Positions 1 to 33,163 of a stretch of DNA of 34,700 bases are shown piece after piece. Below the pieces are notes generated by a model. That model had not been told where the DNA came from, made no database searches, and worked only from the letters and a program-made list of their open reading frames with translations. The number at the start of each line of letters is the position of its first letter. The stretch's first letter is position 1. This DNA is from a virus. Its lineage: Duplodnaviria > Caudoviricetes. Where the stretch lies: positions 1 to 34,700 of IMG/VR virus record IMGVR_UViG_3300022666_000343; one strand, written 5' to 3'. A program made the position numbers and the translations under genes.

Positions 1-966
1 ATGAAATCACCGATTCAAACGGTAGCCCTGGACTTCGGGGCAGGGAATTTTAAGATGTTCGGCCCTGATGGAGGCGTCGTTATCCCTTCGCACGTGGCAG
101 CGTTCTCCGGCGATCAAATCGGAGAAGTGGCGGGAGTTCGCAGCGTGGCCGGATCCACCCGGATCTCGATAAACGGGTATCGGTTTTACGTTGGCCGCAA
201 TGCTCACGCCTTCGGCCGGCCCGTCGAAAACCTCGACGACGGACGGTTCGCGGCCGGGACACCGGAATTACGGGCGCTCACCTACTCCGCGCTCTCCAGC
301 CTCACCCAGTCCCAAATCAACATCATCGTAGGACTGCCCCAGACCACCCTGGCCGGGGCTCAGGCCAGGACAACGACGGAAGGGCTGCGGGACTGGCTGA
401 CGGGAACGCACACCTGGACGGTCAATGATACCGAACGCGCCATCGACGTGCAAAAGGTGACGATCTCCAGCCAGGCAGCCGGCGGGATGTTCGATTACCT
501 GCTCGACCAGGACGGAAAGTTTCTCCCCGAACGGAAGGCCCGGTTCCGGGAAGAGATCGGGGTAATCTCGATCGGGATGAATACCATCGAATTCCTGGTA
601 GTAAATGGGGGGGAATCGGTGGGGCGCTTCTCCGGGAGCGTTACAGCCGGCGTGCGGAGGCTACTGGAACTGGTCGATCCCCGGGGAATGTACTCCAGGG
701 GCGAACTCGACACCATGCTCCAGGCAAAAAAGCTCGACGTGAAGCCCGCGCTTCCCATCTGGGGGGCAGAGGTGGCCGGGCATGTCGAACGGATCTGGGG
801 GCGCGACCACCGTCGCTTCGCCGCCATTGTGATCGTGGGAGGAGGCGCCGTTCTTCTTCGTGAGGAGCTCGTCAAACTTTTCAACGGCAAGAGCTTCTTC
901 CCCGACGACCCGATCCTGGCCGTCTCCCGCGGGCTCTTCAAACTGGCCTTGATGAAGGGGAAGTAA
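1..966 (+). CDS. parM: ParM/StbA-family actin-like plasmid partition ATPase
   Basis: 321 aa. N-terminal actin phosphate-1 motif (VALDFGAGNFK), IIVGLP, phosphate-2 region (GVISIGMNT) and adenosine motif (IVIVGGGA). Followed directly by a small adaptor-like gene. Confidence 0.85.
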   Translation: MKSPIQTVALDFGAGNFKMFGPDGGVVIPSHVAAFSGDQIGEVAGVRSVAGSTRISINGYRFYVGRNAHAFGRPVENLDDGRFAAGTPELRALTYSALSSLTQSQINIIVGLPQTTLAGAQARTTTEGLRDWLTGTHTWTVNDTERAIDVQKVTISSQAAGGMFDYLLDQDGKFLPERKARFREEIGVISIGMNTIEFLVVNGGESVGRFSGSVTAGVRRLLELVDPRGMYSRGELDTMLQAKKLDVKPALPIWGAEVAGHVERIWGRDHRRFAAIVIVGGGAVLLREELVKLFNGKSFFPDDPILAVSRGLFKLALMKGK

Positions 967-968
967 AA

Positions 969-1187
969 ATGGGTCGCCCGCGCCGCGCATCCAACATCGT
1001 CGTCCACCAGGTCAAGCTTTGGCTCGTTCCTGGGCAGGATGATGATCTCATCGAATTTTTTGCGGGGCTTACCGAGGGCGGCAAAGCGGCAGCGGTCAAG
1101 TCGGCCATGCGGTCGGGAAATATCGCCAGCTACGAAAACTCCGAAGATGACGATATGGAGGCCCTGTTAGATCAGTTCGTTTTGTGA
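969..1187 (+). CDS. Putative ParR-like (ribbon-helix-helix) partition adaptor
   Basis: 72 aa, starts 2 nt after the parM stop. Beta-strand/helix/helix pattern (HQVKLWL..DDDLIEFF..KAAAVKSAMR) and an acidic C-terminal tail. Position matches type II par operons. Confidence 0.55.
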   Translation: MGRPRRASNIVVHQVKLWLVPGQDDDLIEFFAGLTEGGKAAAVKSAMRSGNIASYENSEDDDMEALLDQFVL

Positions 1188-1224
1188 TGCACTAAACCCA
1201 GCGCGGGTTTAGTGCATCACAAAA
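1180..1224. repeat. Perfect 20-bp inverted repeat with 5-nt spacer
   Basis: TTTTGTGATGCACTAAACCC-AGCGC-GGGTTTAGTGCATCACAAAA, overlapping the stop codon of the ParR-like gene. Confidence 0.95.
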
Positions 1225-1254
1225 AAAAGCGGCTCTCCTGCCGGGGAGGGCCGC
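1221..1254 (-). terminator. Intrinsic terminator on the minus strand
   Basis: Minus strand reads GCGGCCCTCC-CCGGCA-GGAGAGCCGC followed by T8. Confidence 0.7.
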
Positions 1255-1284
1255 AGGGCAGGAGGGGTCAAGTCTTCTCTGCCC
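1221..1284 (-). ncRNA. Candidate ~64-nt antisense (countertranscript) RNA
   Basis: Lies between an extended -10 (1291-1299, minus) and the minus-strand terminator. Predicted two-hairpin fold: GGGCAG...CUGCCC, then the terminator stem. Confidence 0.5.
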
Positions 1285-1290
1285 ACCAAG

Positions 1291-1299
1291 ATTATAGCA
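1291..1299 (-). promoter_or_regulatory. Extended -10 promoter element (TGCTATAAT)
   Basis: Plus strand ATTATAGCA = TGnTATAAT consensus on the minus strand. No strong -35. Confidence 0.55.
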
Positions 1300-1312
1300 C
1301 GCGGAGGGAAAT

Positions 1313-2821
1313 ATGAAAGAGCGGACCACTCAGCAGGTGGCATTATACCTTGCCGGAGGTTTGCTTGTGGCCGGTATCGTGATCGGGCTGCTGGTGGCCG
1401 TTGCGATCGGCGGCGGGGCGCGCTGGCTGGACTCCGACCAGCGTGCCCTGGGCCTGGAGCGCGATCAGGCGCTGCAGGGGCTGCGCGTGGCCACCACCGC
1501 AGTCACCGAGTCGGCCCTGGCCGGGGGTCTGGTGGGGAGCATCATAATCGGGTTGTTTTGGCTGGAGCGGCGCTCCCGCCAGGTCTATGCAGCCGGCGGA
1601 TTGTTTCCGCTCCTCCGGCTCCGGCCGGGCGAAACGCTGTACGATCCCAACCGCGCCGCCGGCGCCATCCTCCGCATCACCGCCGACGGGCACATCGTGG
1701 AATCTCTGGCGTCTCCGTGGTCGGTAGCCGGGGCCCTGGAAGTGCAGAAAGCCGCCGCGCTGGCCACCAGCGGATCAGAACTCCGCATAGACGCCCCGGC
1801 CTTCCGGGACCAGGCCGACCAGGCACTGCCGGCGGCGGAGCCGATTGTAGATCTTCCGGGAATTCCATCCCTGGTAAATCTTCCCGATCTTTTCATCGGA
1901 AAAAATCCAAGCCTGGAAAGCCTGGTTATTGGGGTTGGGAATTCCGGGCCAGTTTCGCTCCCCCTACATGATCTAATGCATATGCTGGCTGTGGGGGCCA
2001 GCGGGTGGGGGAAGTCTACCTGGCTGCGCAGCTTGATCTGGCAACTGGCCCAGGTGCCTGAACCGGTTGAGGTTATGGCCATTGATATCTCAGGATCGGA
2101 ATTCAATATCCTCCACCAGTGGGATCGCTTGCGGTACCCGGTAGCCCGGACAACAGATGAGGCCGAAGGATTACTGGACCAAATCAGAAACGAGATCGGG
2201 CGGCGAAAGGCCCTTTGGGAAAAAGTTCCCCTGGCCAGCAGCCTCCCAGAGTACAACGAATTGACCGGTGAAAAACTTGCCCCCTGGATCTGCTTTGCCG
2301 ATGAGCTCACAAACTTGATGAACCAGGGCGGCGTCATCCGCCCTTTCCGTGAAACGGTCCAAACTGCCCGCCAGTATGGGCTTTTCATGGTCGTTTCCGG
2401 GCAGTCGGTCGTTTCGTCGGTCATCGACACGCAAACCCGCGGTCAGTTTTCCACCCGGCTTTGCTTTCATGCCGAGCCGAGCTCTAGCCGGGTCGTCGTC
2501 GATGATCGATCTGCAGCGCGGATCGGAATAAAGGGCCGGGCCATCGCGCAACTGTTCGGAATGCCCCGCATGGAAATTCAGGGTCCCTACGTTTCCAAAT
2601 CCGATCTGGCAATGGTTCTTTCAGACGGAGGCCCACGTCGCCCGGCTCCGACCCCGGCCCCCACTCCTGCCCCGGTCATAGACGAAACCGCCCGGCGGGT
2701 CTGGGCAATGCACAATGCAGGATCCTCAGACACGGCCATTGCCCGGGCTGTGTTCGGATATGGAAATTCGCACTACATAGATCGAGTGCGAGACATCTTA
2801 CAACAACAACACAACGGCTGA
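1313..2821 (+). CDS. Membrane-anchored FtsK/SpoIIIE-family ATPase (TraB/TcpA-like DNA translocase) with C-terminal HTH
   Basis: 502 aa. Two N-terminal hydrophobic segments, Walker A GASGWGKS, Walker B ICFADE, ARQYGLFMVVSGQ motif, PAPTPAPTPAP linker and a C-terminal HTH-like segment (SDTAIARAVFG). RBS GGAGG. Confidence 0.85.
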   Translation: MKERTTQQVALYLAGGLLVAGIVIGLLVAVAIGGGARWLDSDQRALGLERDQALQGLRVATTAVTESALAGGLVGSIIIGLFWLERRSRQVYAAGGLFPLLRLRPGETLYDPNRAAGAILRITADGHIVESLASPWSVAGALEVQKAAALATSGSELRIDAPAFRDQADQALPAAEPIVDLPGIPSLVNLPDLFIGKNPSLESLVIGVGNSGPVSLPLHDLMHMLAVGASGWGKSTWLRSLIWQLAQVPEPVEVMAIDISGSEFNILHQWDRLRYPVARTTDEAEGLLDQIRNEIGRRKALWEKVPLASSLPEYNELTGEKLAPWICFADELTNLMNQGGVIRPFRETVQTARQYGLFMVVSGQSVVSSVIDTQTRGQFSTRLCFHAEPSSSRVVVDDRSAARIGIKGRAIAQLFGMPRMEIQGPYVSKSDLAMVLSDGGPRRPAPTPAPTPAPVIDETARRVWAMHNAGSSDTAIARAVFGYGNSHYIDRVRDILQQQHNG

Positions 2822-2864
2822 GTGTTGTAGGGTTGTTGTTGTTGTCTTTGTTGTGTTGTTGTAA
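2798..2864. repeat. CAA/GTT-rich imperfect inverted repeat cluster
   Basis: TTACAACAACAACACAAC (2798-2815) is complementary to both GTTGTTGTTGTTGT (2832-2845) and GTTGTGTTGTTGTAA (2850-2864). Confidence 0.85.
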
Positions 2865-2877
2865 CGAAAGGAGCAGG

Positions 2878-3003
2878 ATGAATGCAGGAGCGACGTTTAT
2901 GCTTTTGATTATCTCGATGGGGATCTACTTCATCATCGACGCCTGGACATCTCCCCCTCCACCGCCACCGCCTCCACCCACCATCAACGTGAAATTGGTC
3001 TGA
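2878..3003 (+). CDS. Small (41 aa) single-pass membrane protein with a 9-proline tract; absent from the ORF track
   Basis: RBS AAAGGAG at 2867-2873. Translates to MNAGATFMLLIISMGIYFIIDAWTSPPPPPPPPPTINVKLV and fills the ftsK-rep gap. Confidence 0.65.
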   Translation: MNAGATFMLLIISMGIYFIIDAWTSPPPPPPPPPTINVKLV

Positions 3004-3025
3004 AAACATCAACCCGGAGGGCAGT

Positions 3026-4045
3026 ATGAATAGCACAATGGTCTCGATAGATCCCCGACAACTTTGGAACCAGGCCCTGGGCGAATTAGAGTTACAAATG
3101 ACCCGGGCAACCTTTGACACCTGGCTGCGAAACACCCAGGGGATTGATATATCGGACGGGAAATTGCACGTCGCAGTTTTGAATACCTATGCGGTGGAAT
3201 GGCTGAACAACCGGCTGGCCTCCGTCGTGGCCAGGACTGTAAACCGGCTGGCCGGGCAAGAGATCCCCATTGAATATATCGTCCAGGAACCAGGCGCGCC
3301 GGCGATCGCCGCTGCAAAGCCCACCACAGCCCCTTCACAGCCCACGCCAGAGCAACCTGACGACACTGCCGAAACGCTGCGCCGGCTGCTGGAGCAGATC
3401 ACCGACCCGGCCGCCCGGGAGGTAATCGAGGGACAGATCGCCAGGCTGGCCGGAGGAGCTGGCGCAGCGCCGGAGCAGCCCACATACTCGTGGATCCAGA
3501 AATATGGCGGCATCGACCCGAAGACCTGGGGATACACCCAGGTCGCCAACTACGCCTACAAATTCTGGCAGCCCGTGATGAACCGCCAGATCCGCGCCAC
3601 CTTCTCTGTCTACCTGGTCGTCAGATCGGCCTACAAATCCGCCGACGGAGAGTGGACAACGCCGAAACTCTGGGCGATCGAAGAGCTTGCCCGGGCGGCC
3701 GGATGTGGACGCCAGTCCATCACCGGAGTCAGCCGGCGCTGCGCAGAAGACGCCCAGGGCGCCGTGCTGGTCCATCCGGAGGATCTGGACGGGAACCAGG
3801 CCGAAAAAGCAGTATGGATGGCCTACCGGCCTGGGGCGCTGGATGTGCTACATGACTACGGGCTGGCCACCGTCGATATCCGGGGCAGCGGCCGCCACAC
3901 CACCTACTGGATCTCGGTTAAAGTCTCGCTCCCACTGCTCTCTCCCGGCCAAGCGGCAACGTTGCCGGCATCACTCCAGGCGGAGCACTCCAAGTTCCTG
4001 GAGGAGCATGATATCCCGGCTGAGGATTGGAAAATGGTTGTGTAA
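3026..4045 (+). CDS. Replication initiator: N-terminal DnaA domain I fused to a winged-HTH-like domain
   Basis: Residues ~9-86 match DnaA_N (LWNQALGELELQMTRATFDTWL...NTYAVEWLNNRL). C-terminal HTH/wing (IEELARAAGCGRQSI...ALDVLHDYGLATV). No AAA+ domain. An iteron array begins at its stop codon. Confidence 0.75.
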   Translation: MNSTMVSIDPRQLWNQALGELELQMTRATFDTWLRNTQGIDISDGKLHVAVLNTYAVEWLNNRLASVVARTVNRLAGQEIPIEYIVQEPGAPAIAAAKPTTAPSQPTPEQPDDTAETLRRLLEQITDPAAREVIEGQIARLAGGAGAAPEQPTYSWIQKYGGIDPKTWGYTQVANYAYKFWQPVMNRQIRATFSVYLVVRSAYKSADGEWTTPKLWAIEELARAAGCGRQSITGVSRRCAEDAQGAVLVHPEDLDGNQAEKAVWMAYRPGALDVLHDYGLATVDIRGSGRHTTYWISVKVSLPLLSPGQAATLPASLQAEHSKFLEEHDIPAEDWKMVV

Positions 4046-4120
4046 AAGCACAACCATTGTTATGCAAATACATAACCAGCGTTGTGTAAATGCATAACTC
4101 CGGTTGTGTAAATACACAAC
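4037..4120. repeat. Four 18-bp quasi-palindromic iterons at exact 22-bp period (putative origin)
   Basis: GTTGTGTAAAAGCACAAC (4037), GTTATGCAAATACATAAC (4059), GTTGTGTAAATGCATAAC (4081), GTTGTGTAAATACACAAC (4103). Confidence 0.9.
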
Positions 4121-4128
4121 CAAAACAT

Positions 4129-4150
4129 AACCGGCCCGGCCGGTTTTTTT
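4129..4150 (+). terminator. Intrinsic terminator after rep, inside the origin region
   Basis: AACCGGCC-C-GGCCGGTT running into a T7 tract. Confidence 0.65.
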
Positions 4151-4227
4151 AATCGGAACGTTAAGTGTGTACTCTGCAACGCAAAACACAACGGGCTTAT
4201 GTATTCTGCACCACAATACACAAGGGC

Positions 4228-4266
4228 CTTGTGTATTTACACAACACGGTTGTGTAAATACACCGA
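4228..4266. repeat. Two further iteron copies preceding an AT-rich tract
   Basis: CTTGTGTATTTACACAAC (4228-4245, inverted orientation) and GTTGTGTAAATACACCGA (4249-4266). An AT-rich stretch follows at about 4280-4345. Confidence 0.8.
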
Positions 4267-4395
4267 CCAGGAAGGGACAAGATAAAGATAACATTCAGAA
4301 ACATAAGTATTGATATTTATCTTAATATCTGATCTTCTTTCTTTACGTCTCAACCCGAAACACAAACACAGAAAACTCCAAACGGAGGAATTCAA

Positions 4396-4608
4396 ATGCC
4401 ATCAATGCAAACGGTTTACGGTAACCAAGTAGTCGCCGAACTCGTTCTGTCTGGAAAGAAACCCACAAACCTGGACTTCGTTAACATCAGGATTGCGGCC
4501 GCCACCTACATAGATGAAACCCGGAAGGAAAAAATCGGCATCATTCCGGCATTCGATTTTGCCGCGATCGTCATGGCCACCTGGCCGGAGTGGGTCAATG
4601 AGCGATAA
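4396..4608 (+). CDS. Hypothetical phage protein
   Basis: 70 aa, RBS GGAGG; first gene after the origin. Confidence 0.7.
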   Translation: MPSMQTVYGNQVVAELVLSGKKPTNLDFVNIRIAAATYIDETRKEKIGIIPAFDFAAIVMATWPEWVNER

Positions 4609-4837
4609 CGACGAGTCCGAATTTCGCCCGGGTGACCAGGTCCTTTGGGGAGAGTCCGGGGCTGGAAAAATCTCCTATCTATCGCTGGACGGAACGCGGG
4701 CCTACATCGTAGACCTTCACGGCCAGCCATGCACAATCCCAACGGAACGCCTTATCAAACGCACAAATCGCCATCTTAAATCTGAGGGCGGCATTATCCA
4801 GTCAGGTAATTCAAGCGGAGGAACCGATGAGCACTAA
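4598..4837 (+). CDS. Hypothetical protein, SH3/KOW-like beta-barrel pattern
   Basis: Starts MSDNDESEFRPGDQVLW; the F.PGD.V motif is typical of small SH3-like phage proteins. Overlaps neighbouring genes. Confidence 0.6.
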   Translation: MSDNDESEFRPGDQVLWGESGAGKISYLSLDGTRAYIVDLHGQPCTIPTERLIKRTNRHLKSEGGIIQSGNSSGGTDEH

Positions 4838-5249
4838 ATTCTATGTTGTTGAGGCCGGGAAATGCCCGGAATGCCATGGGGAGCAATTTACCGGAACGCG
4901 CCTATATTGCGAGGTCTGTGATTCAACATTAACTTCCGATGATATTAAACCCGGCTTGCATATTATGTCCTGCGGGCACGATAGCAGCTCGTTACGGGAA
5001 GAAGACACTATCTGCTCTACGTGCGAAGGCGAGGGAACGATCCGCCGCGAGATCCCGCTGGAAGAAGCGCTGAACACATTGCGAAAGCAGTCCACAATGA
5101 ACCAGGATATCGATACCATCATCAAACAAAACGAACGGCTCAAGGGACTGATCAGTGATGTTGCCGACCGAAGTTACATCTGCCCCTGGTGCGGTCACGC
5201 CCGGGGAGAGCATACCAAAGACTGCGAAGCCCTTGAGGTGCTGCGATGA
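4827..5249 (+). CDS. Cys-rich zinc-finger protein
   Basis: 140 aa with CPECHG, CEVC, CSTCEG and CPWC...H...C motifs. RBS GGAGG. Confidence 0.7.
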   Translation: MSTKFYVVEAGKCPECHGEQFTGTRLYCEVCDSTLTSDDIKPGLHIMSCGHDSSSLREEDTICSTCEGEGTIRREIPLEEALNTLRKQSTMNQDIDTIIKQNERLKGLISDVADRSYICPWCGHARGEHTKDCEALEVLR

Positions 5250-5671
5250 ACGCCAAAACCATCGATGCCCGCCATCTCCGGGCCAGTAACGTGAATTCCT
5301 TGCTTTGTTTCATAGCGGAACGTGGACAACACTTCTTTGAGCACAACAACAAAGTGTCCCATTTTGAAATCGATGAGGATGGGAAAATATCGTGGCTCGA
5401 TGAGGGAACGCTGGAACGCACAACCGCAGTGCGCTACCTCGAAAGCTGGAACCATTTCAGTGAAGAAGAACAGATATTTTTTTTGGTAAAGGATCTTTGG
5501 GATCACATTGCAACAGGTGACCTAGTTGACCGTTTGCATTTTGGTCCCTGGCCGAAGTTTTTCCATAATGGAGATCCCTGGGGCTATGGCCTTGAAACCA
5601 TGGCCGATATCCGAGACGCAGCCGCCGTCCTGGAAATTATCCCTCATGCAGATCCGGCAAAGGAGCAATAG
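5246..5671 (+). CDS. Hypothetical phage protein
   Basis: 141 aa, ATGA-coupled to the upstream gene. Confidence 0.7.
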   Translation: MNAKTIDARHLRASNVNSLLCFIAERGQHFFEHNNKVSHFEIDEDGKISWLDEGTLERTTAVRYLESWNHFSEEEQIFFLVKDLWDHIATGDLVDRLHFGPWPKFFHNGDPWGYGLETMADIRDAAAVLEIIPHADPAKEQ

Positions 5672-5672
5672 A

Positions 5673-6110
5673 ATGAACCACTACGCGGGAGCAAGCTGGA
5701 TTCAAGGTCAGATTGAACATGGTCGTTACAAGGGGCCTTTGTCGCCTATCGGCCGGAAAGCCGCCACCATTCTGGGAGATCTCTATCAGGGAATCTACCA
5801 CATAGAGGATCAGGCCCAGAAGGTCAATTGGAGCAATCCGGATTTTATTACCATCGTTGTCTATAAAAGCCATGGGCTGGCAACCTTCGACGGCGATCAG
5901 CTCACGCAGCTGGTGCTCATGGCTCACCTTCTGAGCGTCAGGGTATCGATCGAGCCAGCGAGTCCCCGTCATTTGCGCTTGGTCTTCGCCCACCGGACCC
6001 GCGAGGGGGATCTGTATTTCCGCCACCCGGGCCTTTCTGAGGCTATCGAGATGTTCAATGCCCACTATGGCGTCGATGTGCTCAAAGACGACCTGGCGGA
6101 TGAGCAATGA
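5673..6110 (+). CDS. Hypothetical phage protein
   Basis: Start MNHYAG with RBS AAGGAG; globular composition. Confidence 0.7.
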   Translation: MNHYAGASWIQGQIEHGRYKGPLSPIGRKAATILGDLYQGIYHIEDQAQKVNWSNPDFITIVVYKSHGLATFDGDQLTQLVLMAHLLSVRVSIEPASPRHLRLVFAHRTREGDLYFRHPGLSEAIEMFNAHYGVDVLKDDLADEQ

Positions 6111-6424
6111 ACATCCCCATTGATCCGACAGAAATACACGACGAACTCAGCCCGGTCGCCCGGTACGTCAAACGCAGCCTTACCGAGCAGCTGCGAGAGG
6201 CCCTGGGGGCAACCTGGGACGAGACGACAAACCAGGCCGCCGAACGGGTAGCGGAGGAGCGCAACCAGGCGCTGCAGCGGGAGGCCGCGGCGATCGCCGG
6301 CATTAAAGCGCTCAATGACGAATTGCAGCACATATACGCCAGGCTGCACGACGCGCTGTCAGCGTCCCGTGAGCGCGCCCTGGGCCGCGTTGAGCAGATC
6401 CTGGAAGAGATCCTGGAGGAATAG
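6107..6424 (+). CDS. Coiled-coil hypothetical protein
   Basis: 105 aa, helical E/A/R/L-rich, ATGA overlap. Confidence 0.7.
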   Translation: MNIPIDPTEIHDELSPVARYVKRSLTEQLREALGATWDETTNQAAERVAEERNQALQREAAAIAGIKALNDELQHIYARLHDALSASRERALGRVEQILEEILEE

Positions 6425-6426
6425 CC

Positions 6427-6669
6427 ATGAAAAACAGCGGTTACAACTACATCGGGCGGATGCCGGATTGCCGGTGTTGCGTCGCCGTATGTGTCGATAA
6501 CGGCGATAAGCGCACCGCGAAAAACATCTCTGATTTCATCACCAGCGGCCTGATCGTTGAACGAGTCAGCGATCAGGATTACCAGGAAAAAGTCTGCAAA
6601 GAGCCGGGTTTCTTCAAATGTCCCCACCAGGCCCCCGCCGCCGGCGCTACGCAGGAAAAGCTCTTTTGA
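6427..6669 (+). CDS. Small Cys-rich hypothetical protein
   Basis: 80 aa, CRCC..C and C..C motifs, RBS GGAGG. Confidence 0.65.
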   Translation: MKNSGYNYIGRMPDCRCCVAVCVDNGDKRTAKNISDFITSGLIVERVSDQDYQEKVCKEPGFFKCPHQAPAAGATQEKLF

Positions 6670-6690
6670 GGCATAGATACGTATCAAATC

Positions 6691-6718
6691 GGTTCCGATA
6701 ATCGGCGTTATCGGCAAC
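6691..6718. other. dif-like 11-6-11 site A (putative tyrosine-recombinase site or operator)
   Basis: GGTTCCGATAA-TCGGCG-TTATCGGCAAC. Intergenic; the arms share an inverted CCGATAA. Confidence 0.6.
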
Positions 6719-6739
6719 TGACAGAAAGAAAGGAGACCT

Positions 6740-7120
6740 ATGGGAAAGCGATGTGGTTGGATGAGGAAAAACGAATTCAGTCCTGTTGTGAAGCATATGC
6801 TGCAAGCGTTCGAAACCGTTTTTCACGAGCATACCAATGGATACACGGTTACCTATTTCAGGGATGATGCCGTGTTTGTAATGGTCAACGGGTATCTGAA
6901 TTGTTATTATCTGGCGCGGATGGTTTGCCAGTTCCCTGAAATCGGTTTCGACGTAGAGGCGGCAGCGCCGGGATATGTGATTCTGCGGATGTTCAGCAAT
7001 GCATACGAGATCAAAAACAACGAGAGCCGGCTCCCTGAAATTCAAACCCCGGTAGAAATCCATCAATGGACCGAGACCACAGGGGTCAGAGTTCGCGCTG
7101 ATGCAAAGCATGGGTGGTGA
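6740..7120 (+). CDS. Hypothetical protein (cassette gene 1)
   Basis: 126 aa, RBS AAAGGAG; immediately after site A. Confidence 0.65.
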   Translation: MGKRCGWMRKNEFSPVVKHMLQAFETVFHEHTNGYTVTYFRDDAVFVMVNGYLNCYYLARMVCQFPEIGFDVEAAAPGYVILRMFSNAYEIKNNESRLPEIQTPVEIHQWTETTGVRVRADAKHGW

Positions 7121-7123
7121 AAA

Positions 7124-7450
7124 ATGTCACTTTTTGAAAAATCGCAGTATTGCAAACTTTGTGGTGAATATAGCTACGGCCCCTGCAAGTGCAAGGAGTT
7201 CTACTGCACGATTGATGAGCCGGAAACGATTGAAGACTGGGAGCACGACTCCGACAAGATCAACGCCAAAAGCGCTGGCTCCGCTGCCGTCAAGTTTTGC
7301 GAGCGTTCAGACATTGACGGGTGGTTTGAGGGTACGCGCACTGTTTTTGTTCGACTGGGGATTGATGGGGCAATCAAACGGATCGAAGTTGAATCATGGC
7401 TGGAGCCGTCGTATGAGGCGTCAGAGGTTGTTGAGTGGGTGGCAAAATGA
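7124..7450 (+). CDS. Hypothetical protein with N-terminal Cys cluster (cassette gene 2)
   Basis: 108 aa, CKLC...CKC motif. Confidence 0.65.
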   Translation: MSLFEKSQYCKLCGEYSYGPCKCKEFYCTIDEPETIEDWEHDSDKINAKSAGSAAVKFCERSDIDGWFEGTRTVFVRLGIDGAIKRIEVESWLEPSYEASEVVEWVAK

Positions 7451-7668
7451 AAAACGAAGACCGTGACATTACGATTCTTAACATCTCCAGCATGCCCTGT
7501 TTTTGCGTGGTGTTGAAACGCGCTGTAGATGGTTCATGGGAACCGGCTGGGCCGTTTTCTACTGAGAATGAAGCTATTGCTTTTCACGATACGTTGCCGA
7601 AAGACATGGAGAAGGTCATCATCCACTATAAGGCCCATTGCGGATTTGCTTTCAAGGACGAGGAGTAA
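7447..7668 (+). CDS. Hypothetical protein (cassette gene 3)
   Basis: Start MKNEDR with ATGA overlap; GPFSTENEA motif is common in small phage proteins. Confidence 0.6.
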   Translation: MKNEDRDITILNISSMPCFCVVLKRAVDGSWEPAGPFSTENEAIAFHDTLPKDMEKVIIHYKAHCGFAFKDEE

Positions 7669-7683
7669 TTCTATAGGCCTTTT

Positions 7684-7711
7684 GGTTCCGATAATCAACA
7701 TTATCAGCGGC
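7684..7711. other. dif-like 11-6-11 site B
   Basis: GGTTCCGATAA-TCAACA-TTATCAGCGGC. First 13 nt are identical to site A, same orientation, intergenic. Confidence 0.6.
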
Positions 7712-7753
7712 CCGATCGGGGAACCGGCCGGGCCGCTGGAAAGGGGAAATACG

Positions 7754-7837
7754 GTGGGAAAGAATGTACCGGTTATCGTTGGAGCATTTTGGCTTTTGGT
7801 CGTAGTGGTAGCAATTTCAATCATCATCAGTCTGTAG
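7754..7837 (+). CDS. Tiny (27 aa) hydrophobic membrane peptide
   Basis: GTG start after AAAGGGG; (M)GKNVPVIVGAFWLLVVVVAISIIISL. Confidence 0.5.
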   Translation: MGKNVPVIVGAFWLLVVVVAISIIISL

Positions 7838-7851
7838 AAAGGAAAATCATC

Positions 7852-8070
7852 ATGGACCAACACGAAGCCCTTTACAAAAAGGCCATTGAGGCTATCTATG
7901 CAGTATTTGGAGACACTTCTGTTTCCAAAGAAAGAACCGAAGAATCCCTCAATGGGATGATCGAAGAGATTGAGGACTTGCGCTCTACCTTGAATCCTGG
8001 GAAAGGCTGGTTGCCGGACGATGGGGGGCCGGATGATCCGGATGAACAGCTTGATCTTGACGACGACTGA
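7852..8070 (+). CDS. Small acidic helical hypothetical protein
   Basis: Start MDQHEAL with RBS AAAGGA; very acidic C-terminus (DDPDEQLDLDDD). Confidence 0.65.
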   Translation: MDQHEALYKKAIEAIYAVFGDTSVSKERTEESLNGMIEEIEDLRSTLNPGKGWLPDDGGPDDPDEQLDLDDD

Positions 8071-8073
8071 ACC

Positions 8074-8106
8074 AAAGGGGGGCCACACCGGTGGCCCCCC
8101 TTTTTT
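8074..8106 (+). terminator. Intrinsic terminator ending the left-arm operon
   Basis: AAAGGGGGGCCAC-ACCG-GTGGCCCCCCTTT, running into T6. Confidence 0.85.
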
Positions 8107-8194
8107 GTTGCGTTTTAGGCGCAGGGTTTACGACCGGTGGACCCTGGTGCCGGCATGTTCTCAATGGCGAACATATCCCCAGTTTATCCCAACC

Positions 8195-8203
8195 TGTGGA
8201 TAA
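8195..8203 (-). promoter_or_regulatory. Consensus DnaA box
   Basis: TGTGGATAA = reverse complement of TTATCCACA. Two 2-mismatch boxes lie at 8173 and 8184. Confidence 0.45.
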
Positions 8204-8583
8204 CTATTGCAAAACAATAATCACCGGTGCTCTCGATCGTTCCAAATAAATTCCCCAGGTACACCGGGTACACCAGGTAGTAGATATTTACAACGCCGTG
8301 ACTACCCGGGTCCGTTCATCGGTTCATCGATGAATGAATCGAGGCAATGTCCACCGGTGGACGTGGATAGAGCGCAGCTGCGGCAGCAGATCCGGACCCG
8401 CTGGCCAGCAGCCCCATCACCGGCCCGGGCGCCGTGGCCACCGCCCGACGGCAGGACGCAATGCCGGCAGTGGGGGGAACAACGGGGTATGGAGGAATTC
8501 ACAACGGTCAGGGCGGAGGATCGGCAGTGGGACGGAATGCCGGATTGCCACGGGAGGTCGGAGCTGCGGGAGAGGGACAAGGC

Positions 8584-8616
8584 AAGCCGGCCCGGGTGGT
8601 GGACCTGGGCCGGCTT
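8584..8616. terminator. GC-rich hairpin just beyond the last late gene; possible late-operon terminator
   Basis: AAGCCGGCCC...GGGCCGGCTT. Only short T tracts on either side. Confidence 0.45.
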
Positions 8617-8634
8617 TGAATACGTGCGTAATCG

Positions 8635-8883
8635 CTATTCCGTCACGTCGGGAGGAGCGGCCGACGCCGGCTGCGGGTCGATGCGCACCAACGCCAGCTT
8701 TCCCCCCTCAACCTGCTGGAAATCCCACTGCCCATCCTGGCCGGCAGCGCCGGCGTAGGCAGTAGCCAGCGCCTGGAGGCTGTTTTCAACCAGGCCGACC
8801 TTTTGTAGCAACTGAGCCCGATCCTGGGCCAACATCATCACGGGTAAAGATTGGCCATCGGTCAAAATGATTTTGTTTTCCAT
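8635..8883 (-). CDS. Small protein after the tail fibre (possible fibre chaperone)
   Basis: MENKIILTDGQ...; alternative start at 8922. Product call is from position only. Confidence 0.6.
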   Translation of the reverse strand: MENKIILTDGQSLPVMMLAQDRAQLLQKVGLVENSLQALATAYAGAAGQDGQWDFQQVEGGKLALVRIDPQPASAAPPDVTE

Positions 8884-8914
8884 CGCTTTTTCTACCTTTC
8901 GAGTTCTGTTTTGT

Positions 8915-11443
8915 TTAGACATAGTATCCCCACAACTGCAAATAAACCCCGGTGGCATTGGCGCCACCGATTACAACCTCGAAATCCCCGTTGGAGTCCA
9001 CCGGTACAACCGCCGTCATTTCAACGTACCCGGAAAGATACGATTTTACAATGGCTGTGAACTCCGTCGCTCCATTTGGACGTAAACCGGCGTAATATCC
9101 GGTATTTGTTGCGCCCCAATTGGCCGCCAGCCGGATTAAAATTGCCTTGACCCCGACCGGAAGACTCCAGGGGCTGGCCGAAGTGTCAATGTCGTAGGTC
9201 CCGATATTTTTCGCGTCGCTATCCCAATCGGTAGACGTTTTTGGCGTGGTGAGCGGGACAAAGATATACCCTGTTCTCAATGCCCCATCCTGCATTTTCC
9301 TCAGGTCGCCCTCATATTCAACATTGTTGTCGCCGGGTATAGTTCCTGTTCCACCAACATACAAACCCCGTCCTACTCGTAGATCGTGCGACGTAGAAAC
9401 ATAGGTTGCCGCGTTCAATTCTATGGCTCGTTTAACTGAGGAACTGAGAATGTTAATGCGCGCCTCTACAGAATTTTCAACAGCGACCAGCTCGACTGTA
9501 CTGGCCCGCCCGGTATATCCAGTCGCGGTCATCGAGATCCGGGTGTCGTGCGCGTTCGCTGAGGCCGCCGTTGCGAACAGTCCATTCTCCGATGCCGTCA
9601 ACACGGAATAAAGCTGGCCGTAGGTGGTTCCACCGGTGGAGAATTTTAAAGCCCGAGAGGCTGCATACGTCGTACTGGGAACGATGGTGGCTCCATCGAC
9701 ATCTAAAATCACGACTCCAGCGCCGGCGTATAGTTTCCCGTCCGTCGCGTCTATTTTTACCTGATAGACGTTTGACAGTAGCGAGTAAAACCCGGTCCGG
9801 TCCATCCAGAAACCGGTGCCGGAGGCGCTCGCCGTCGGCGGAGTCGCGCCGATCGCCAGCGCGCTCCCAGTTCCGGGCAACCGCAATTTGCCGAGGATAT
9901 CGGCATTACCGGCCTGGTCCAATTGGATGACCGTGGTAGCCCCAGAAAGTAAGCGCAATCCGTTGGTCGGGTCCCAGGTCATCGACCCTTTTCCCGTCGC
10001 ATACTCTCCGAACGCGGCCCCATATGTAGGCGCGGCATATCCCCAGTTCCCGTTCAGATCCCCGAGTCTCATCAACTCGGTCTTTGTATTGTAAGTGGCC
10101 CCCTGGGTCCAAATGTTGATCCTGGGTGTATCGTAGGCGTTCGCCTCGATCCACCCGTCACCAGCCACACCGATCACCCAGAACGGCGCGCCGGCGGGCC
10201 AATCGTTGGCCCCCGACCCGTCGAGGTTCCTGGTCACGTTGTACGTGGTCCCACTGACCAGGCTAAGGACTTTTACATACTCGACCTGCCCCAACCCGCG
10301 AAAAACCACAAAGCTGTTCAACGCGACGGCCTTCCCGAAATTGATGGTGGTCGCAGCCGCAGCCAGCGCCGCCGGCAAAACGCCCTCATCTTTGCCCACG
10401 ATGAGCCACCCGCCCAGGAGCGTTACCGTATTAGCCGCGAACAAAACCGTGTCGAACTCCGAAGCGTAGACTTTTCTCCATAGTAAAGACGCGCTGCCCA
10501 GATCATAGGTATCCGTCGCCATCGGATAATGATGCCCCGTTTTTAGCAACCCGGCGTTGCTCATGCTGGCCAGTAGGCTGGCCCCGTTGTACCACTCAGT
10601 GATGGTGGCAGCCGTGCCGTTGATCTTGAGCGGGAGCACGTCGGGGTCAACTGACTCCAGGTGCAACAGGTCCGTTGCACCTGGGTTACCAGTGTGCTGG
10701 TGAATATGCACCAGGTCCCCCACGAATGCGCCGGTGGCTTCTATCTCAAAGGCTCCATCATACGTGGGGGCTCCACTGGGGTTTGTATAGCTGAAGGCCA
10801 GCGATTTATTCGCCATATTGAACGTTTTACTCGCCGCCGGCGCTGCTATCTCATCCAGCGAAATTCCAGTGATCGTTCCGTTGAACGTCACCGCACCGTT
10901 GAAAACATGGTCGCCTGACCATGTGGGGCTGATGCTCACATCCAGCGCGTGCCGATGATCCTCACGCGCCGATTTCGTGGCCACGCCGACGGCGGCCGCG
11001 GTCAGGCTCACCGACAACGGCGATGCAGCTGCAAAATCTACCGCCAGGGTCCGGTCGGCCGTGAGCAATCCGCCGCCGGTGAGGCCGGAGCCGGCCAGGA
11101 TCGACCGGTTGAGACGTTCCGCCATGTAGGCGCTGCGCGTTCCGGCGCCGTCGGCGCTGGCATAGATCGTATGCGAGTCGGCCAGCAGGTGGGCGTCATA
11201 GGTCGATTTAAACGCCGACACATCGACGCCATCGATCGTTACGCCATCCACTACCGTCAAATTTCCAGTCAGCGATCGAGACCCATCCCGCAGCAGGAAC
11301 TGCGGGGCCTGATCGTCGGCCAGCTGGCCTGTGTGCAATGGTCCATTTAGCGCGTGCGCCGCGTCGCTGGATTCCGTAATTGCCTGCCGCTGCCAGCCAA
11401 TCACATATGGCTTTATTGCCTGAAGAATTTCTTCAACTGTCAT
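8915..11443 (-). CDS. Tail fibre / receptor-binding minor tail protein
   Basis: 842 aa from MTVEEIL (ATGA overlap with the upstream gene). G/T/A/S-rich, fibre motifs (AGSGLTGGG, REDHRH, YDLGSASLLWRKVYA). Last large gene of the tail cluster. Confidence 0.75.
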   Translation of the reverse strand: MTVEEILQAIKPYVIGWQRQAITESSDAAHALNGPLHTGQLADDQAPQFLLRDGSRSLTGNLTVVDGVTIDGVDVSAFKSTYDAHLLADSHTIYASADGAGTRSAYMAERLNRSILAGSGLTGGGLLTADRTLAVDFAAASPLSVSLTAAAVGVATKSAREDHRHALDVSISPTWSGDHVFNGAVTFNGTITGISLDEIAAPAASKTFNMANKSLAFSYTNPSGAPTYDGAFEIEATGAFVGDLVHIHQHTGNPGATDLLHLESVDPDVLPLKINGTAATITEWYNGASLLASMSNAGLLKTGHHYPMATDTYDLGSASLLWRKVYASEFDTVLFAANTVTLLGGWLIVGKDEGVLPAALAAAATTINFGKAVALNSFVVFRGLGQVEYVKVLSLVSGTTYNVTRNLDGSGANDWPAGAPFWVIGVAGDGWIEANAYDTPRINIWTQGATYNTKTELMRLGDLNGNWGYAAPTYGAAFGEYATGKGSMTWDPTNGLRLLSGATTVIQLDQAGNADILGKLRLPGTGSALAIGATPPTASASGTGFWMDRTGFYSLLSNVYQVKIDATDGKLYAGAGVVILDVDGATIVPSTTYAASRALKFSTGGTTYGQLYSVLTASENGLFATAASANAHDTRISMTATGYTGRASTVELVAVENSVEARINILSSSVKRAIELNAATYVSTSHDLRVGRGLYVGGTGTIPGDNNVEYEGDLRKMQDGALRTGYIFVPLTTPKTSTDWDSDAKNIGTYDIDTSASPWSLPVGVKAILIRLAANWGATNTGYYAGLRPNGATEFTAIVKSYLSGYVEMTAVVPVDSNGDFEVVIGGANATGVYLQLWGYYV

Positions 11444-30278: not shown

Positions 30279-30503
30279 TTGAAAACTGAGCATAACTGCA
30301 TTTATTGTTCGCGCCCTGCGACCCAGGGCGTTAGCCTCATTATAAAAACGGCAGCGCGCCGCGTGGGGGCTTTGCCCCGTTTTGAACGAGCCGGCGGGGT
30401 GGTATGGGTTTGCGATGAACACGCGCCGCTCTTGGCCGTGTTTGTGTGGACAGATCGGCCGCGGGCTGGTGACCATCCCACGGCCGTACCCCAAGCGGAC
30501 TAA
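30279..30503 (+). CDS. Small CxxC...CxxH zinc-finger protein (paralogue A)
   Basis: TTG start after GGGAGG; CIYC...VCDEH. Homologous to 31660-31905. Confidence 0.75.
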   Translation: MKTEHNCIYCSRPATQGVSLIIKTAARRVGALPRFERAGGVVWVCDEHAPLLAVFVWTDRPRAGDHPTAVPQAD

Positions 30504-30544
30504 TAAGAAACGCCGGGATGGTGACCATCCCGGCGTTTCTTATT
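30502..30544. terminator. 43-bp palindrome / bidirectional terminator between convergent genes
   Basis: AATAAGAAACGCCGGGATGGT-G-ACCATCCCGGCGTTTCTTATT, with perfect 21-bp arms. Confidence 0.8.
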
Positions 30545-31317: not shown

Positions 31318-31517
31318 GGGCGCCTAAAAAGCGTTTGGGGAACGTCGTACTCACAAAGCAAAACGTTCCCCGCCCGTGTGGAACCTTAACAATTGAATAT
31401 CTGATTATAACATAATTGAGACACTCAATTGTCTCGGCCTGTTTAGCGTTACACCTACATCTTGCAGGATGAAGGGGTAACGTCGGACACTATCCTTGTA
31501 AATTGATGGCAACGAAG

Positions 31518-31591
31518 TGGGCGGTATAGGGCTCGAACCTACGACCTCCTCTGTGTAAGAGAGGCGCTCTAACCGACTGAGCTAACCGCCC
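31518..31591 (-). tRNA. tRNA-Val (anticodon TAC), CCA not encoded
   Basis: Cloverleaf on the minus strand: acceptor GGGCGGT/ACCGCCC, D arm GCTC/GAGC, anticodon arm CCTCT-CTTACAC-AGAGG, T loop TTCGAGC. Confidence 0.96.
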
Positions 31592-31905: not shown

Positions 31906-32297
31906 GTTGTTCGCTCCTCGATAGATACCACGGTCAACACCGTGGCTTCAACCAGGCTCCCCCATAACCGGCCCTGCACCAACACGCGATTCCCCTTCAC
32001 GATCTGGGCCACGCGTCCGGCCGGCCCGTGCACAGTGACCAGCGGCGCCCCTACCTCCGTCTGGATGTCGATCAACCGCTGATTCAAATCCATCGCTACC
32101 ACCACGCCCCACAAAGTGACCAGGCTCCCTTGAGGCTCCCGGCCCGCCGGGACCACCACCAACACCCGCAGATCGGCCTCTCGAAAAGCCAGGATGTGCA
32201 GATCCCGCTTCAAGGCCGGCAGCGGCGCATTCACGTCGCCGCCGGCCAGGGCTATGATCTGCCTGATGATCTTCTCGGTGGGTTTCCCCGCCGTCAT
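31902..32297 (-). CDS. Hypothetical protein with OB-fold-like C-terminal domain
   Basis: LWGVVVAMD...IVKGNRVLVQGRL...VEATVL pattern; ATGA-coupled to the recombinase. Confidence 0.55.
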   Translation of the reverse strand: MTAGKPTEKIIRQIIALAGGDVNAPLPALKRDLHILAFREADLRVLVVVPAGREPQGSLVTLWGVVVAMDLNQRLIDIQTEVGAPLVTVHGPAGRVAQIVKGNRVLVQGRLWGSLVEATVLTVVSIEERTT

Positions 32298-33163
32298 CTC
32301 AAGAGACGCCCCACAGGTGAAATGCGCGCCTGTACTTCGCGCACATCCTCCGGGGTCGTATTGACGTACCGCATGGTCGTGGATATTCGACTATGGCCCA
32401 TCACGGTTTTCAAGGTCACTAAGTCGCCGCCGTTCCGCATCCAATTATGCCCAAAGGTATGCCGGAAAAGCTGCGGACCAACGTTCCGCTTGACCTGGGC
32501 CTGCCGGCCACAGCGTTTCACCAACTGCCGCAGTCCCGACGTGGTAAACTGATCCGTGCCGATGCCCGGAAAGGCCCAGGTGCCGTGGATATGATCCGCT
32601 TCCCAGTAGTTCACAATCGCCTGAACCACCAGCGGTTCCAACGGCACGCACCGCTCTTCCTGATCCTTGCCCAACACCCGGATATGCAACTCACTGAGGT
32701 CCACTTTCTCCCGCGGCAAGCTGACCAGCTCGCCGGCCCGGATCCCCGATCCCAGCAACAGCGTGAGGACGGCATAGCTTTTCTCCCCCTGGTCCAGGGT
32801 CTTGGAGGCCGCCAACATCGCCTTCACTTCATGGTCCTTCAAGAAATCCGGCAACCGCTTTTTCTGCGAAGGAGACTCCATCCCCTTCATCGGCGATTCG
32901 ATCCGATATTTCGTATTACACCAGTTGAAAAACGCGGACAGCGTGTTGTAATACGTAACAATCGACCCGGGCTTCGCGCCGTTTTTGCGCTTGTACTCCA
33001 GGTATTTCAAAATGTGCTCCTCTGAAAGATCCTCAATGTGGGGGTTGTTTATCTGCGATGCGAACGCCAACACTGTCTCATAGTACCGTTCGATGGTCCG
33101 TGGTGATCTCCCCAACGTGGTTTTGGATTTCAGCAGAGCGCTTAACGCTTCACATAACCGCAT
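32294..33163 (-). CDS. XerC/D-like tyrosine recombinase
   Basis: 289 aa from MRLCEA (RBS AGGAG). SAM-like domain (SPRTIERY), GIRAGEL, VLGK, PQLFRHTF, MGHS and TTMRY motifs. No N-terminal arm-binding domain. Confidence 0.92.
   Translation of the reverse strand: MRLCEALSALLKSKTTLGRSPRTIERYYETVLAFASQINNPHIEDLSEEHILKYLEYKRKNGAKPGSIVTYYNTLSAFFNWCNTKYRIESPMKGMESPSQKKRLPDFLKDHEVKAMLAASKTLDQGEKSYAVLTLLLGSGIRAGELVSLPREKVDLSELHIRVLGKDQEERCVPLEPLVVQAIVNYWEADHIHGTWAFPGIGTDQFTTSGLRQLVKRCGRQAQVKRNVGPQLFRHTFGHNWMRNGGDLVTLKTVMGHSRISTTMRYVNTTPEDVREVQARISPVGRLLR

What the first reader, a model, noticed from the sequence alone, without database searches (positions are those of the whole stretch)
6691..7711. 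Two dif-like 28-bp sites bracket a three-gene cassette: possible recombinase-driven gene-cassette system in a phage
Seen: GGTTCCGATAA-TCGGCG-TTATCGGCAAC (6691) and GGTTCCGATAA-TCAACA-TTATCAGCGGC (7684). They are in direct orientation and both intergenic, shortly after a stop codon and before the next RBS. They enclose about 1 kb with three genes that look AT-richer than the genes upstream. Spacers differ only by G/A transitions (TCRRCR). Known: Xer sites have this 11-6-11 ...ATAA-N6-TTAT... layout (E. coli dif GGTGCGCATAA-TGTATA-TTATGTTAAAT), and pdif sites delimit mobile modules on Acinetobacter plasmids. Inference: accessory early genes are captured or shuffled as dif-like modules, by host XerCD or the element's own Xer-like recombinase.
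Basis: partly seen in the sequence, partly recalled or inferred. Interest (0 to 1): 0.8.

Follow-up and report, generated by a model that had tools for sequence, protein, structure and literature searches.

The report
Address-coded gene-swap slot in phages
Two short mirror-symmetric DNA sites bracket three small genes of a prophage; unrelated phages keep the same 6-letter site centres in the same order, and this gene block also turns up in another sample with different neighbours, so the sites likely act as matched crossover points for swapping gene blocks between phages.

Summary
Observation confirmed; interpretation partly right. The two 28-bp sites (centres TCGGCG and TCAACA) lie in a 37-kb prophage of an Anaerolineae genome. 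Two other prophages of that genome and one IMG/VR phage carry the same site type with the same centres in the same order (TGACAG, GTGGAA, TCGGCG, TCAACA). Centres never differ between same-position sites (0/84 letters); arms do (63/308). A virome from another study holds the three-gene block almost letter for letter from 6691 to 7709, with other DNA on both sides and without this phage's flanks. The two centres differ at 3 of 6 letters, so an excised circle is unlikely; the likely mechanism is double-crossover exchange between co-resident phages, as proposed for Acinetobacter pdif modules. It fails pdif membership: symmetric arms, no XerD arm, no host dif found. The 32294-33163 recombinase lies outside the prophage's attR, and no recombinase is shared by the four phages, so the enzyme is unidentified. 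Not found in print in 10 searches. Earlier scan notes report the same kind of system in gut SPbeta-like phages.

The parts
6691..6718 (+). Site A: 11-bp arm, spacer TCGGCG, 11-bp arm. The same spacer occurs at the equivalent place in the C22, C2 and G061 phages
   Evidence: left breakpoint of the X2 copy is at 6691
6740..7120 (+). Cassette gene 1, 126 aa, unknown function; homologues in the A-B slot of C22 (47%) and G061, and in site-less elements on C18, C21, C84 (44%)
   Evidence: (no family)
7124..7450 (+). Cassette gene 2, 108 aa, Cys-rich N-terminus, unknown function; not found in the C22, C2 or G061 slots
7447..7668 (+). Cassette gene 3, 73 aa, unknown function; no homologue elsewhere in G000
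7684..7711 (+). Site B: 11-bp arm, spacer TCAACA, 11-bp arm whose outer part overlaps a GC hairpin. Same spacer in C22, C2, G061
   Evidence: X2 copy matches to 7709
7704..7739 (+). GC-rich RNA hairpin between site B and the next ribosome-binding site; a hairpin sits here in all four phages
   Evidence: z -3.5 to -4.3; 0 of 200 shuffles as good in each of 4
6427..6669 (+). Gene just upstream of the slot (80 aa); 55% identical to the gene before site A in C22; different genes in C2, G061 and X2
7754..7837 (+). 27-aa hydrophobic ORF just downstream of the slot
31516..31551 (.). attR of the prophage: 36-bp repeat of C62:4457-4492, overlapping tRNA-Val(TAC) 31517-31591
32294..33163 (-).

Best explanation
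The two sites are likely crossover sites for a tyrosine recombinase, and each 6-bp centre is kept at a fixed position across phages, so it likely serves as an address that lets two phages in one cell swap the whole block between matching sites. Shown: the sites, their fixed spacer order in four phages, invariant spacers with variable arms, and the same block in another context with edges at the sites. Inferred from tyrosine-recombinase chemistry and the pdif precedent: site A cannot recombine with site B (3 of 6 mismatches), so the block would not be deleted. A-with-A recombination between a resident prophage and an incoming or induced phage would form a cointegrate, and B-with-B recombination would resolve it, exchanging the slot in register and in the operon's direction (natural recombinase-mediated cassette exchange). 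A single crossover would swap whole genome arms. The enzyme is unidentified and would act in trans. My best guess is a single recombinase binding both symmetric arms, related to the Anaerolineae family found here beside similar sites; host XerC or XerD is the next candidate.
For: (1) Same ordered spacers: TCGGCG then TCAACA in C62, C22, C2 and G061; TGACAG then GTGGAA before them in C2 and G061. (2) C2 and G061 share almost no DNA: of 6 blastn hits, 4 are the sites, 1 is a site plus a short adjacent motif, 1 is the gene after site B. C62 versus C2 gives 2 hits, one being site B. (3) 14 same-address pairs among 12 sites: 0/84 spacer mismatches, 63/308 arm mismatches (pairs not independent). (4) Run X2 (viral metagenome, another study): three contigs cover 6691-6851, 6847-7510 and 7532-7709 with 0, 0 and 1 differences. 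One runs on 489 nt of unlike DNA before 6691, another 15 nt after 7709. Depth is 0 over 3800-6664 and 7811-8383. (5) Slot lengths and genes differ among phages (A-B: 993, 848, 1567, 743 nt), and sites sit 0-22 nt after stop codons in most cases. (6) The same arm sequence marks in-frame fusion points of alternative tail-fibre C-termini, with matching inverted spacers, in phage L016. (7) A matrix built only from inverted repeats upstream of an Anaerolineae recombinase family ranks phage sites 1, 2, 6, 8, 9 and 13 in the 8-Mb genome. (8) Precedent: spacer-matched cointegration of Acinetobacter plasmids (PMC11705084, passages).
Against: No recombinase is assigned: the four phages share only a CI-like repressor (24-43%) and have unlike integrases. 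The site-adjacent recombinase family was not found in G000 or in 70 genomes of its family at E<=1e-45; the nearest G000 relative (C56, 34%) has no such site near it. Gene turnover is not confined to the sites: C62 and C22 also differ one gene upstream of A and just after B; gene 1 is first in the slot in C22 but second in G061 (85% DNA identity starting at its start codon, not at a site); its homologues occur without sites on C18, C21 and C84. Five of the 12 sites depart from the inner TTAT of the right arm (TACT twice, AACT once, TTAC twice); in Acinetobacter a site diverged there did not recombine. The X2 pieces are not bridged by one contig (5-nt overlap, 21-nt gap), depth is about 5, and the right loose end is only 15 nt. 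No hybrid junction among co-resident prophages is seen in X1. Window site B is not among the top 22 hits of the independent matrix. Three of the four phages come from one genome.
Confidence: 0.72

Rival explanations
1. The sites are conserved homology patches (boundary sequences, recalled from lambdoid phages) where short-homology recombination crosses over; no site-specific enzyme is involved.
For: No cognate recombinase found. Identity often extends a few bases beyond the site (33 nt at 100% around GTGGAA in C2/G061). Swaps also occur at shared start-codon microhomology: C62 and G061 share 20 nt over the RBS and start after site A, then differ.
Against: Homology-driven conservation would not single out the spacer (0/84) over the arms (63/308), nor keep dyad symmetry with different centres at each position. 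The same arms mark an inversion system in L016.
Confidence: 0.13
2. The sites are operators of a repressor or roadblock protein in the early operon; the shared spacers are inherited.
For: Palindromic, intergenic and before RBSs. Site A overlaps a weak promoter match (TAGATA-17-GATAAT, 9/12; chance level). All four phages encode a CI-like protein. A conserved hairpin follows site B.
Against: The scans at the sites' matrix show no site near the CI genes of C62 or C22. The seven seed sites score 30-39, C22 site B scores 19.4, and the best hit outside prophages is 17.4, so there is no host regulon. An operator gives no reason for position-specific invariant spacers in phages without DNA homology, or for X2 edges at the sites.
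Confidence: 0.06
3. One reading: the block is excised as a ~993-bp circle by A-with-B recombination, using XerCD or the 32294-33163 protein, and re-inserted elsewhere.
For: Direct orientation and 11-6-11 layout; the host encodes XerC-like and XerD-like proteins.
Against: Spacers mismatch at 3 of 6. No hybrid or empty site in four phages; order is fixed rather than shuffled. No circle joint. The named recombinase is outside attR.
Confidence: 0.04
4. The sites are decaying relics of a once-active system whose enzyme this host lineage has lost; later exchanges used them only as homology.
For: Right arms are eroded in C62, C22 and G061; C62 and C22 lack the two upstream addresses; no enzyme found.
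Against: The near-identical X2 copy (1 difference in about 1000 nt) implies a recent exchange; C2 sites are near-perfect palindromes.
Confidence: 0.05

Closest known systems
pdif (xrs) sites and dif modules of Acinetobacter Rep_3/OrfX plasmids (PMC11705084, passages; PMC13141974, abstract and introduction; PMC6449649, two passages)
   Same: 28-bp 11-6-11 sites with an ATAA-N6-TTAT core between accessory genes; only sites with matching centres recombine; exchange is proposed to go by cointegration and resolution between co-resident replicons, not by circle excision.
   Different: Here the carriers are tailed temperate phages of Anaerolineae. Both arms are one motif (no distinct XerD arm). All sites point the same way instead of alternating C and D modules. 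Spacer order is fixed across unrelated genomes. The recombinase is unknown. PMC13141974's abstract calls the dif module system unique to Acinetobacter.
Recombinase-mediated cassette exchange with heterospecific lox/FRT sites (engineering method; recalled, and seen in search listing)
   Same: Two mutually incompatible spacers flank a cassette, so it can be replaced but not deleted.
   Different: Natural, with 11-6-11 sites instead of 13-8-13; no enzyme assigned.
Single-recombinase Xer systems XerS/difSL and XerH/difH (recalled)
   Same: An Anaerolineae recombinase family found here has a symmetric 11-6-11 site just upstream of its gene, and its arms resemble the phage arms.
   Different: Those are single chromosomal dimer-resolution sites; the family was not found in this host's family at E<=1e-45.
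IMEX phages (CTX, TLC, dif-type DJR; PMC12715192, passages)
   Same: Phages carrying dif-like sites.
   Different: IMEX use one dif-like attP to integrate. This prophage integrates at tRNA-Val with its own integrase, and its sites are internal.
Integron cassettes in phages (PMC9892861; seen only as a citation)
   Same: Small genes each followed by a recombination site.
   Different: No attC hairpin layout, no IntI in the prophage, several genes per slot, fixed order.

Membership tests
pdif / dif module | 28-bp site, 11-6-11, inner ATAA..TTAT | tested here: met
pdif / dif module | Distinct XerC and XerD arms resembling the host's dif | tested here: not met
   Arms are inverted copies of one motif; no recurrent dif-like 28-mer in G000 or 144 genomes of the order with the patterns tried
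pdif / dif module | Alternating C and D modules (inverted sites) | tested here: not met
   All 12 sites in four phages read in one direction by spacer and gene strand
pdif / dif module | Same module in different contexts with edges at the sites | tested here: met
   X2 copy 6691-7709 with other flanks; pieces not bridged by one contig
pdif / dif module | Recombination needs XerC/XerD and matching spacers | not testable with these tools
   Host has XerC-like and XerD-like genes, both below the TIGR equivalog cut-offs; spacer conservation is consistent
pdif / dif module | On an Acinetobacter Rep_3/OrfX plasmid | tested here: not met
   tRNA-integrated tailed prophage of an Anaerolineae genome
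IMEX | dif-like attP used for integration, no own integrase | tested here: not met
   att at tRNA-Val and a 356-aa integrase at C62:6154-7224
Integron | IntI integrase with attI, and attC sites | tested here: not met
   No window-linked recombinase reaches integron-integrase cut-offs; sites are 28-bp palindromes
Cre/lox-type simple site with its own recombinase | Cognate recombinase gene next to the site or shared by carriers | tested here: not met
   none near the sites and none shared by the four phages
Repressor operator | Copies at promoters of the immunity region or a host regulon | tested here: not met
Repressor operator | Protein binding and repression | not testable with these tools
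   needs EMSA and reporters

The most novel reading that the evidence does not exclude
Unrelated temperate phages of one Anaerolineae lineage, with different capsids and integrases, share a common address code: an ordered series of spacer-labelled recombination sites, worked in trans by one symmetric-site tyrosine recombinase, that lets any of them trade accessory gene blocks (methylases, a PAPS-reductase-like gene, unknown small proteins) in register. This would be natural cassette exchange as a programmed source of phage mosaicism, probably borrowed from an undescribed single-recombinase dif system of Anaerolineae.
Probability: 0.45. Interest if true: 0.87.

Novelty: new variant of a known kind. 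Interest (0 to 1): 0.74.

Why it matters
Phage mosaicism is usually put down to homologous or illegitimate recombination (review PMC13492144, passages). An ordered set of spacer-matched sites shared by unrelated phages would be a dedicated, testable route for module exchange at fixed gene boundaries. This case adds a near-identical block caught in two contexts with edges at the sites, and extends the pattern from the scan's gut-Firmicutes notes to Chloroflexota. It also supplies four natural orthogonal spacers and a candidate recombinase family for engineering.

Tried and rejected
A fifth address, CTGGAA, in C22 and G061: it lies inside gene 1's coding sequence, so it was dropped before the counts. 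Host dif: recalled-consensus scan of G000, pattern searches of 61, 5 and 145 genomes and the Dehalococcoides rows of PMC3025954's supplement gave nothing conserved. More arrays: 0 of 144 other genomes of the order with the strict pattern; 6 of 400 class genomes had one match, of which I opened 1 (G364); 3 of 144 had the A core, of which I opened 1, G070 (single intergenic site among toxin-antitoxin-like genes). G087's and G000:C16's look-alikes score poorly or are coding. The metagenome scan with the B pattern gave 9 loci, none an array. Viral scans with the B, A and TGACAG patterns gave 3, 5 and 10 loci; only the records of C2, C22 and G061 were arrays. Protein-seeded viral scans with two genes found nothing. 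Laying X1-X4 on the G061 array: X2 does not hold it. The joints at the sites in X1 are the C22 and C2 contigs aligning there; their loose ends match C2's flanks, so they are not recombinants. C56 recombinase: 0 of 144 orthologues in the order at E<=1e-35, no matching site nearby. Promoter reading: chance level. GC skew of G266 from 20 windows of 20 kb is noisy: raw skew positive in 8 of 11 before the recombinase locus, negative in 7 of 9 after; a weak hint only. The literature search for the arm sequence returned unrelated primers (30 of 427 listed). bioRxiv supplements are closed and most subscription papers are not searched, so a prior description may have been missed.

Full report
Setting. 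The window is G000:C62:10017-44716 of an 8-Mb, 95%-complete genome. Named relatives of its XerC are Anaerolineae. It holds most of a tailed temperate prophage: ParM-like, FtsK-like and replication genes on the + strand, then small unknown genes, then tail, head and terminase genes on the - strand. A 36-bp repeat at C62:4457-4492 and window 31516-31551, overlapping tRNA-Val, gives attL and attR; the integrase is C62:6154-7224. The Xer-like gene 32294-33163 is therefore outside the phage, and the related prophage on C22 has no close homologue of it.

Observation. Both sites are as written, 993 nt apart, intergenic and in direct orientation. The enclosed genes have no Pfam or PHROG family. Their GC content (46-51%) is below the prophage mean (55%) but not unique in this operon.

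Other copies. A search of the genome found the same site type in two more prophages. C22 is a relative of the window's phage (about 65-81% DNA identity in patches). C2 is unrelated and has a serine-type integrase. With a matrix built from seven of these sites, the seeds score 30-39, C22's second site 19.4, and the best hit outside prophages 17.4. IMG/VR record G061 is a fourth carrier. Read along the early operon, the spacers are TGACAG, GTGGAA, TCGGCG, TCAACA in C2 and G061, and TCGGCG, TCAACA in C62 and C22. The A-B distance is 993, 848, 1567 and 743 nt. Slot contents differ: two DNA methyltransferase-like genes in C2's first slot, a PAPS-reductase-like gene in G061's second, a promoter with small genes in C2's A-B slot. 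Between C2 and G061, 5 of 6 blastn hits involve the sites; between C62 and C2, site B is one of 2 hits. Over 14 same-address pairs there are 0/84 spacer mismatches and 63/308 arm mismatches, and GATAA plus spacer is invariant. The pairs are not independent, and one apparent extra site was dropped as coding. A more distant G061-like prophage in G077 has a site with spacer TGACAA after its parA region, where G061 has TGACAG, and two further related sites.

The block in another context. Of 4 runs listed, 3 hold part of 5200-9000. X1 may be the source sample. X2, a viral metagenome from another study, covers 6691-6851, 6847-7510 and 7532-7709 with 0, 0 and 1 differences at depth about 5. The first contig continues 489 nt upstream in unlike sequence, starting exactly at site A's first base; the last ends with 15 unlike letters after 7709; 3800-6664 and 7811-8383 have no cover. 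The pieces are not bridged by one contig, and a hole in contigs is not proof of absence, but the unlike upstream flank is direct. The 30 letters shown match none of the four known upstream flanks, and X2 does not hold the G061 array. A protein 93% identical to gene 1 also exists on an ENA contig (context unknown).

The arm type. An exact pattern gave 65 loci across many phyla in GTDB genomes, with varied spacers; I estimated about 13 by chance. A tyrosine-recombinase profile hit 13 of 78 loci scanned, two of them by construction. In phage L016, one site inside a tail-fibre gene and two inverted sites with the same spacer join alternative C-termini in frame, the layout of an inversion system. 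One site-adjacent recombinase (L069) belongs to a family with one match each in 24 of 26 genomes of a sister family and in several other Anaerolineae families. Picked without the phage matrix, an 11-6-11 inverted repeat lies within 800 nt upstream of the gene in 33 of 38 loci, two of these of another motif; consensus arm GATTCGGATAA. A matrix from them ranks phage sites 1, 2, 6, 8, 9 and 13 in G000; window site A is 6th and site B is not in the top 22. So the arms resemble recombinase-associated sites of the host's class.

The enzyme. The four phages share only a CI-like protein. G066 (the IMG/VR record of the C2 prophage, 69% complete) has no PF00589 match; G061 has one beside its att. My profile found 21 tyrosine-recombinase ORFs in G000, including XerC-like and XerD-like genes. 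The L069 family was not found in G000 or in 70 genomes of its family at E<=1e-45. The nearest relative, C56:23583-24686 (34%, sister with 100/99 support), sits in a parM/parR element without such a site. No host dif was found. The enzyme is open.

Mechanism. Established for Xer sites: strand exchange happens in the central region, and excision needs direct sites with identical centres. In A. baumannii, sites with matching centres on two plasmids formed cointegrates, unmatched ones did not, and a two-step exchange is proposed but was not observed (PMC11705084, passages). Applied here (inference): A and B are incompatible, which protects the block, while like-with-like crossovers between co-resident phages exchange it in register. 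Three carriers live in one genome, so partners are available. Against: gene changes also occur away from the sites; gene 1 shifts position within the slot and occurs in site-less elements; five of 12 right arms lack a perfect TTAT; no hybrids are seen in X1 contigs. The sites are thus one route of exchange, not the only one. A hairpin after site B in all four phages suggests a second, RNA-level role that may explain the eroded right arm.

Known versus new. It works like the pdif module system, but fails membership on arm asymmetry, module alternation and carrier (PMC13141974 abstract and introduction; PMC6449649 passages). It is not an IMEX (PMC12715192 passages). Ten literature searches (listings and abstract starts only, apart from the papers named) showed no report of ordered spacer-addressed sites in tailed phages. 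RMCE, XerS/XerH and boundary sequences are recalled. I reached the address reading before consulting the scan's notes. Those notes describe the same kind of system in SPbeta-like gut phages, one marked as partly fallen on a later check; none covers this DNA or this system in Chloroflexota. They are unchecked and are not counted as support.

Verdict. Real, and likely a slot in an addressed cassette-exchange system (0.72); enzyme unknown; new variant of a known kind; interest 0.74.

Noticed in passing
L163-L187, L193-L198, L204-L205, L069:4001-5053: A tyrosine recombinase family, one match per genome in several Anaerolineae families, has a symmetric 11-6-11 site upstream of its gene, often just after the -10 box: a candidate XerS/XerH-like single-recombinase dif system. 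In closed genome G266 it lies at 2.387 of 4.40 Mb, near a weak GC-skew change.
   Followed up: partly
L016:4498-7435 (G062): Tail-fibre inversion system: three sites with spacer TGGGGC join alternative C-termini in frame; a second inverted pair has spacer TCAAAG. No PF00589 gene on this 63%-complete record.
   Followed up: partly
window 1-4122: The integrated prophage also carries plasmid-like functions: a ParM-like gene with a small partner, an FtsK-like ATPase, a replication protein with a DnaA N-terminal domain and 22-bp repeats at 4037-4122. ParM homologues occur at 12 places in G000.
   Followed up: no
window 4757-4795; C2 just after the GTGGAA site; G061 reversed before the TGACAG site; C22: A second short motif ending GAGGGCGGCATT is shared by all four phages; it overlaps a gene end in C62 and C22 but abuts a site arm in C2 and G061. 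Unexplained.
   Followed up: partly
L154:5129, 7534, 19031 (G077:C1): G061-like prophage in another family with three related sites (spacers TGACAA, TAGCGA, TCAACC on the - strand); the second is followed by a strong promoter and small genes, as in C2.
   Followed up: partly
L035, L036, L040/L054, L060/L061, L071 (Alphaproteobacteria MAGs): Two or three sites of the same arm type with different spacers, 0.5-2.7 kb apart: possible further cassette arrays.
   Followed up: no
L068, L078, L088 (Lachnospiraceae); L034, L048, L095 (Prevotellaceae): Pairs of these palindromic sites 150-190 nt apart; in the three Lachnospiraceae loci the spacers are inverse matches and a tyrosine recombinase is adjacent, like invertible promoters.
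   Followed up: no
L005:6500-7020 and L001:18295-19465: C22 and C2, otherwise unrelated, share about 1 kb at 76% DNA identity at the end of the tail module (proteins 85% and 73%), an exchange not bounded by these sites.
   Followed up: no
G000:C62:1-161: A ~68-bp-period repeat at the contig start matches many contigs, often near their ends: a chromosomal interspersed repeat family.
   Followed up: no
window 1180-1224 and 30502-30544: Perfect 20-21-bp inverted repeats in intergenic DNA.
   Followed up: no
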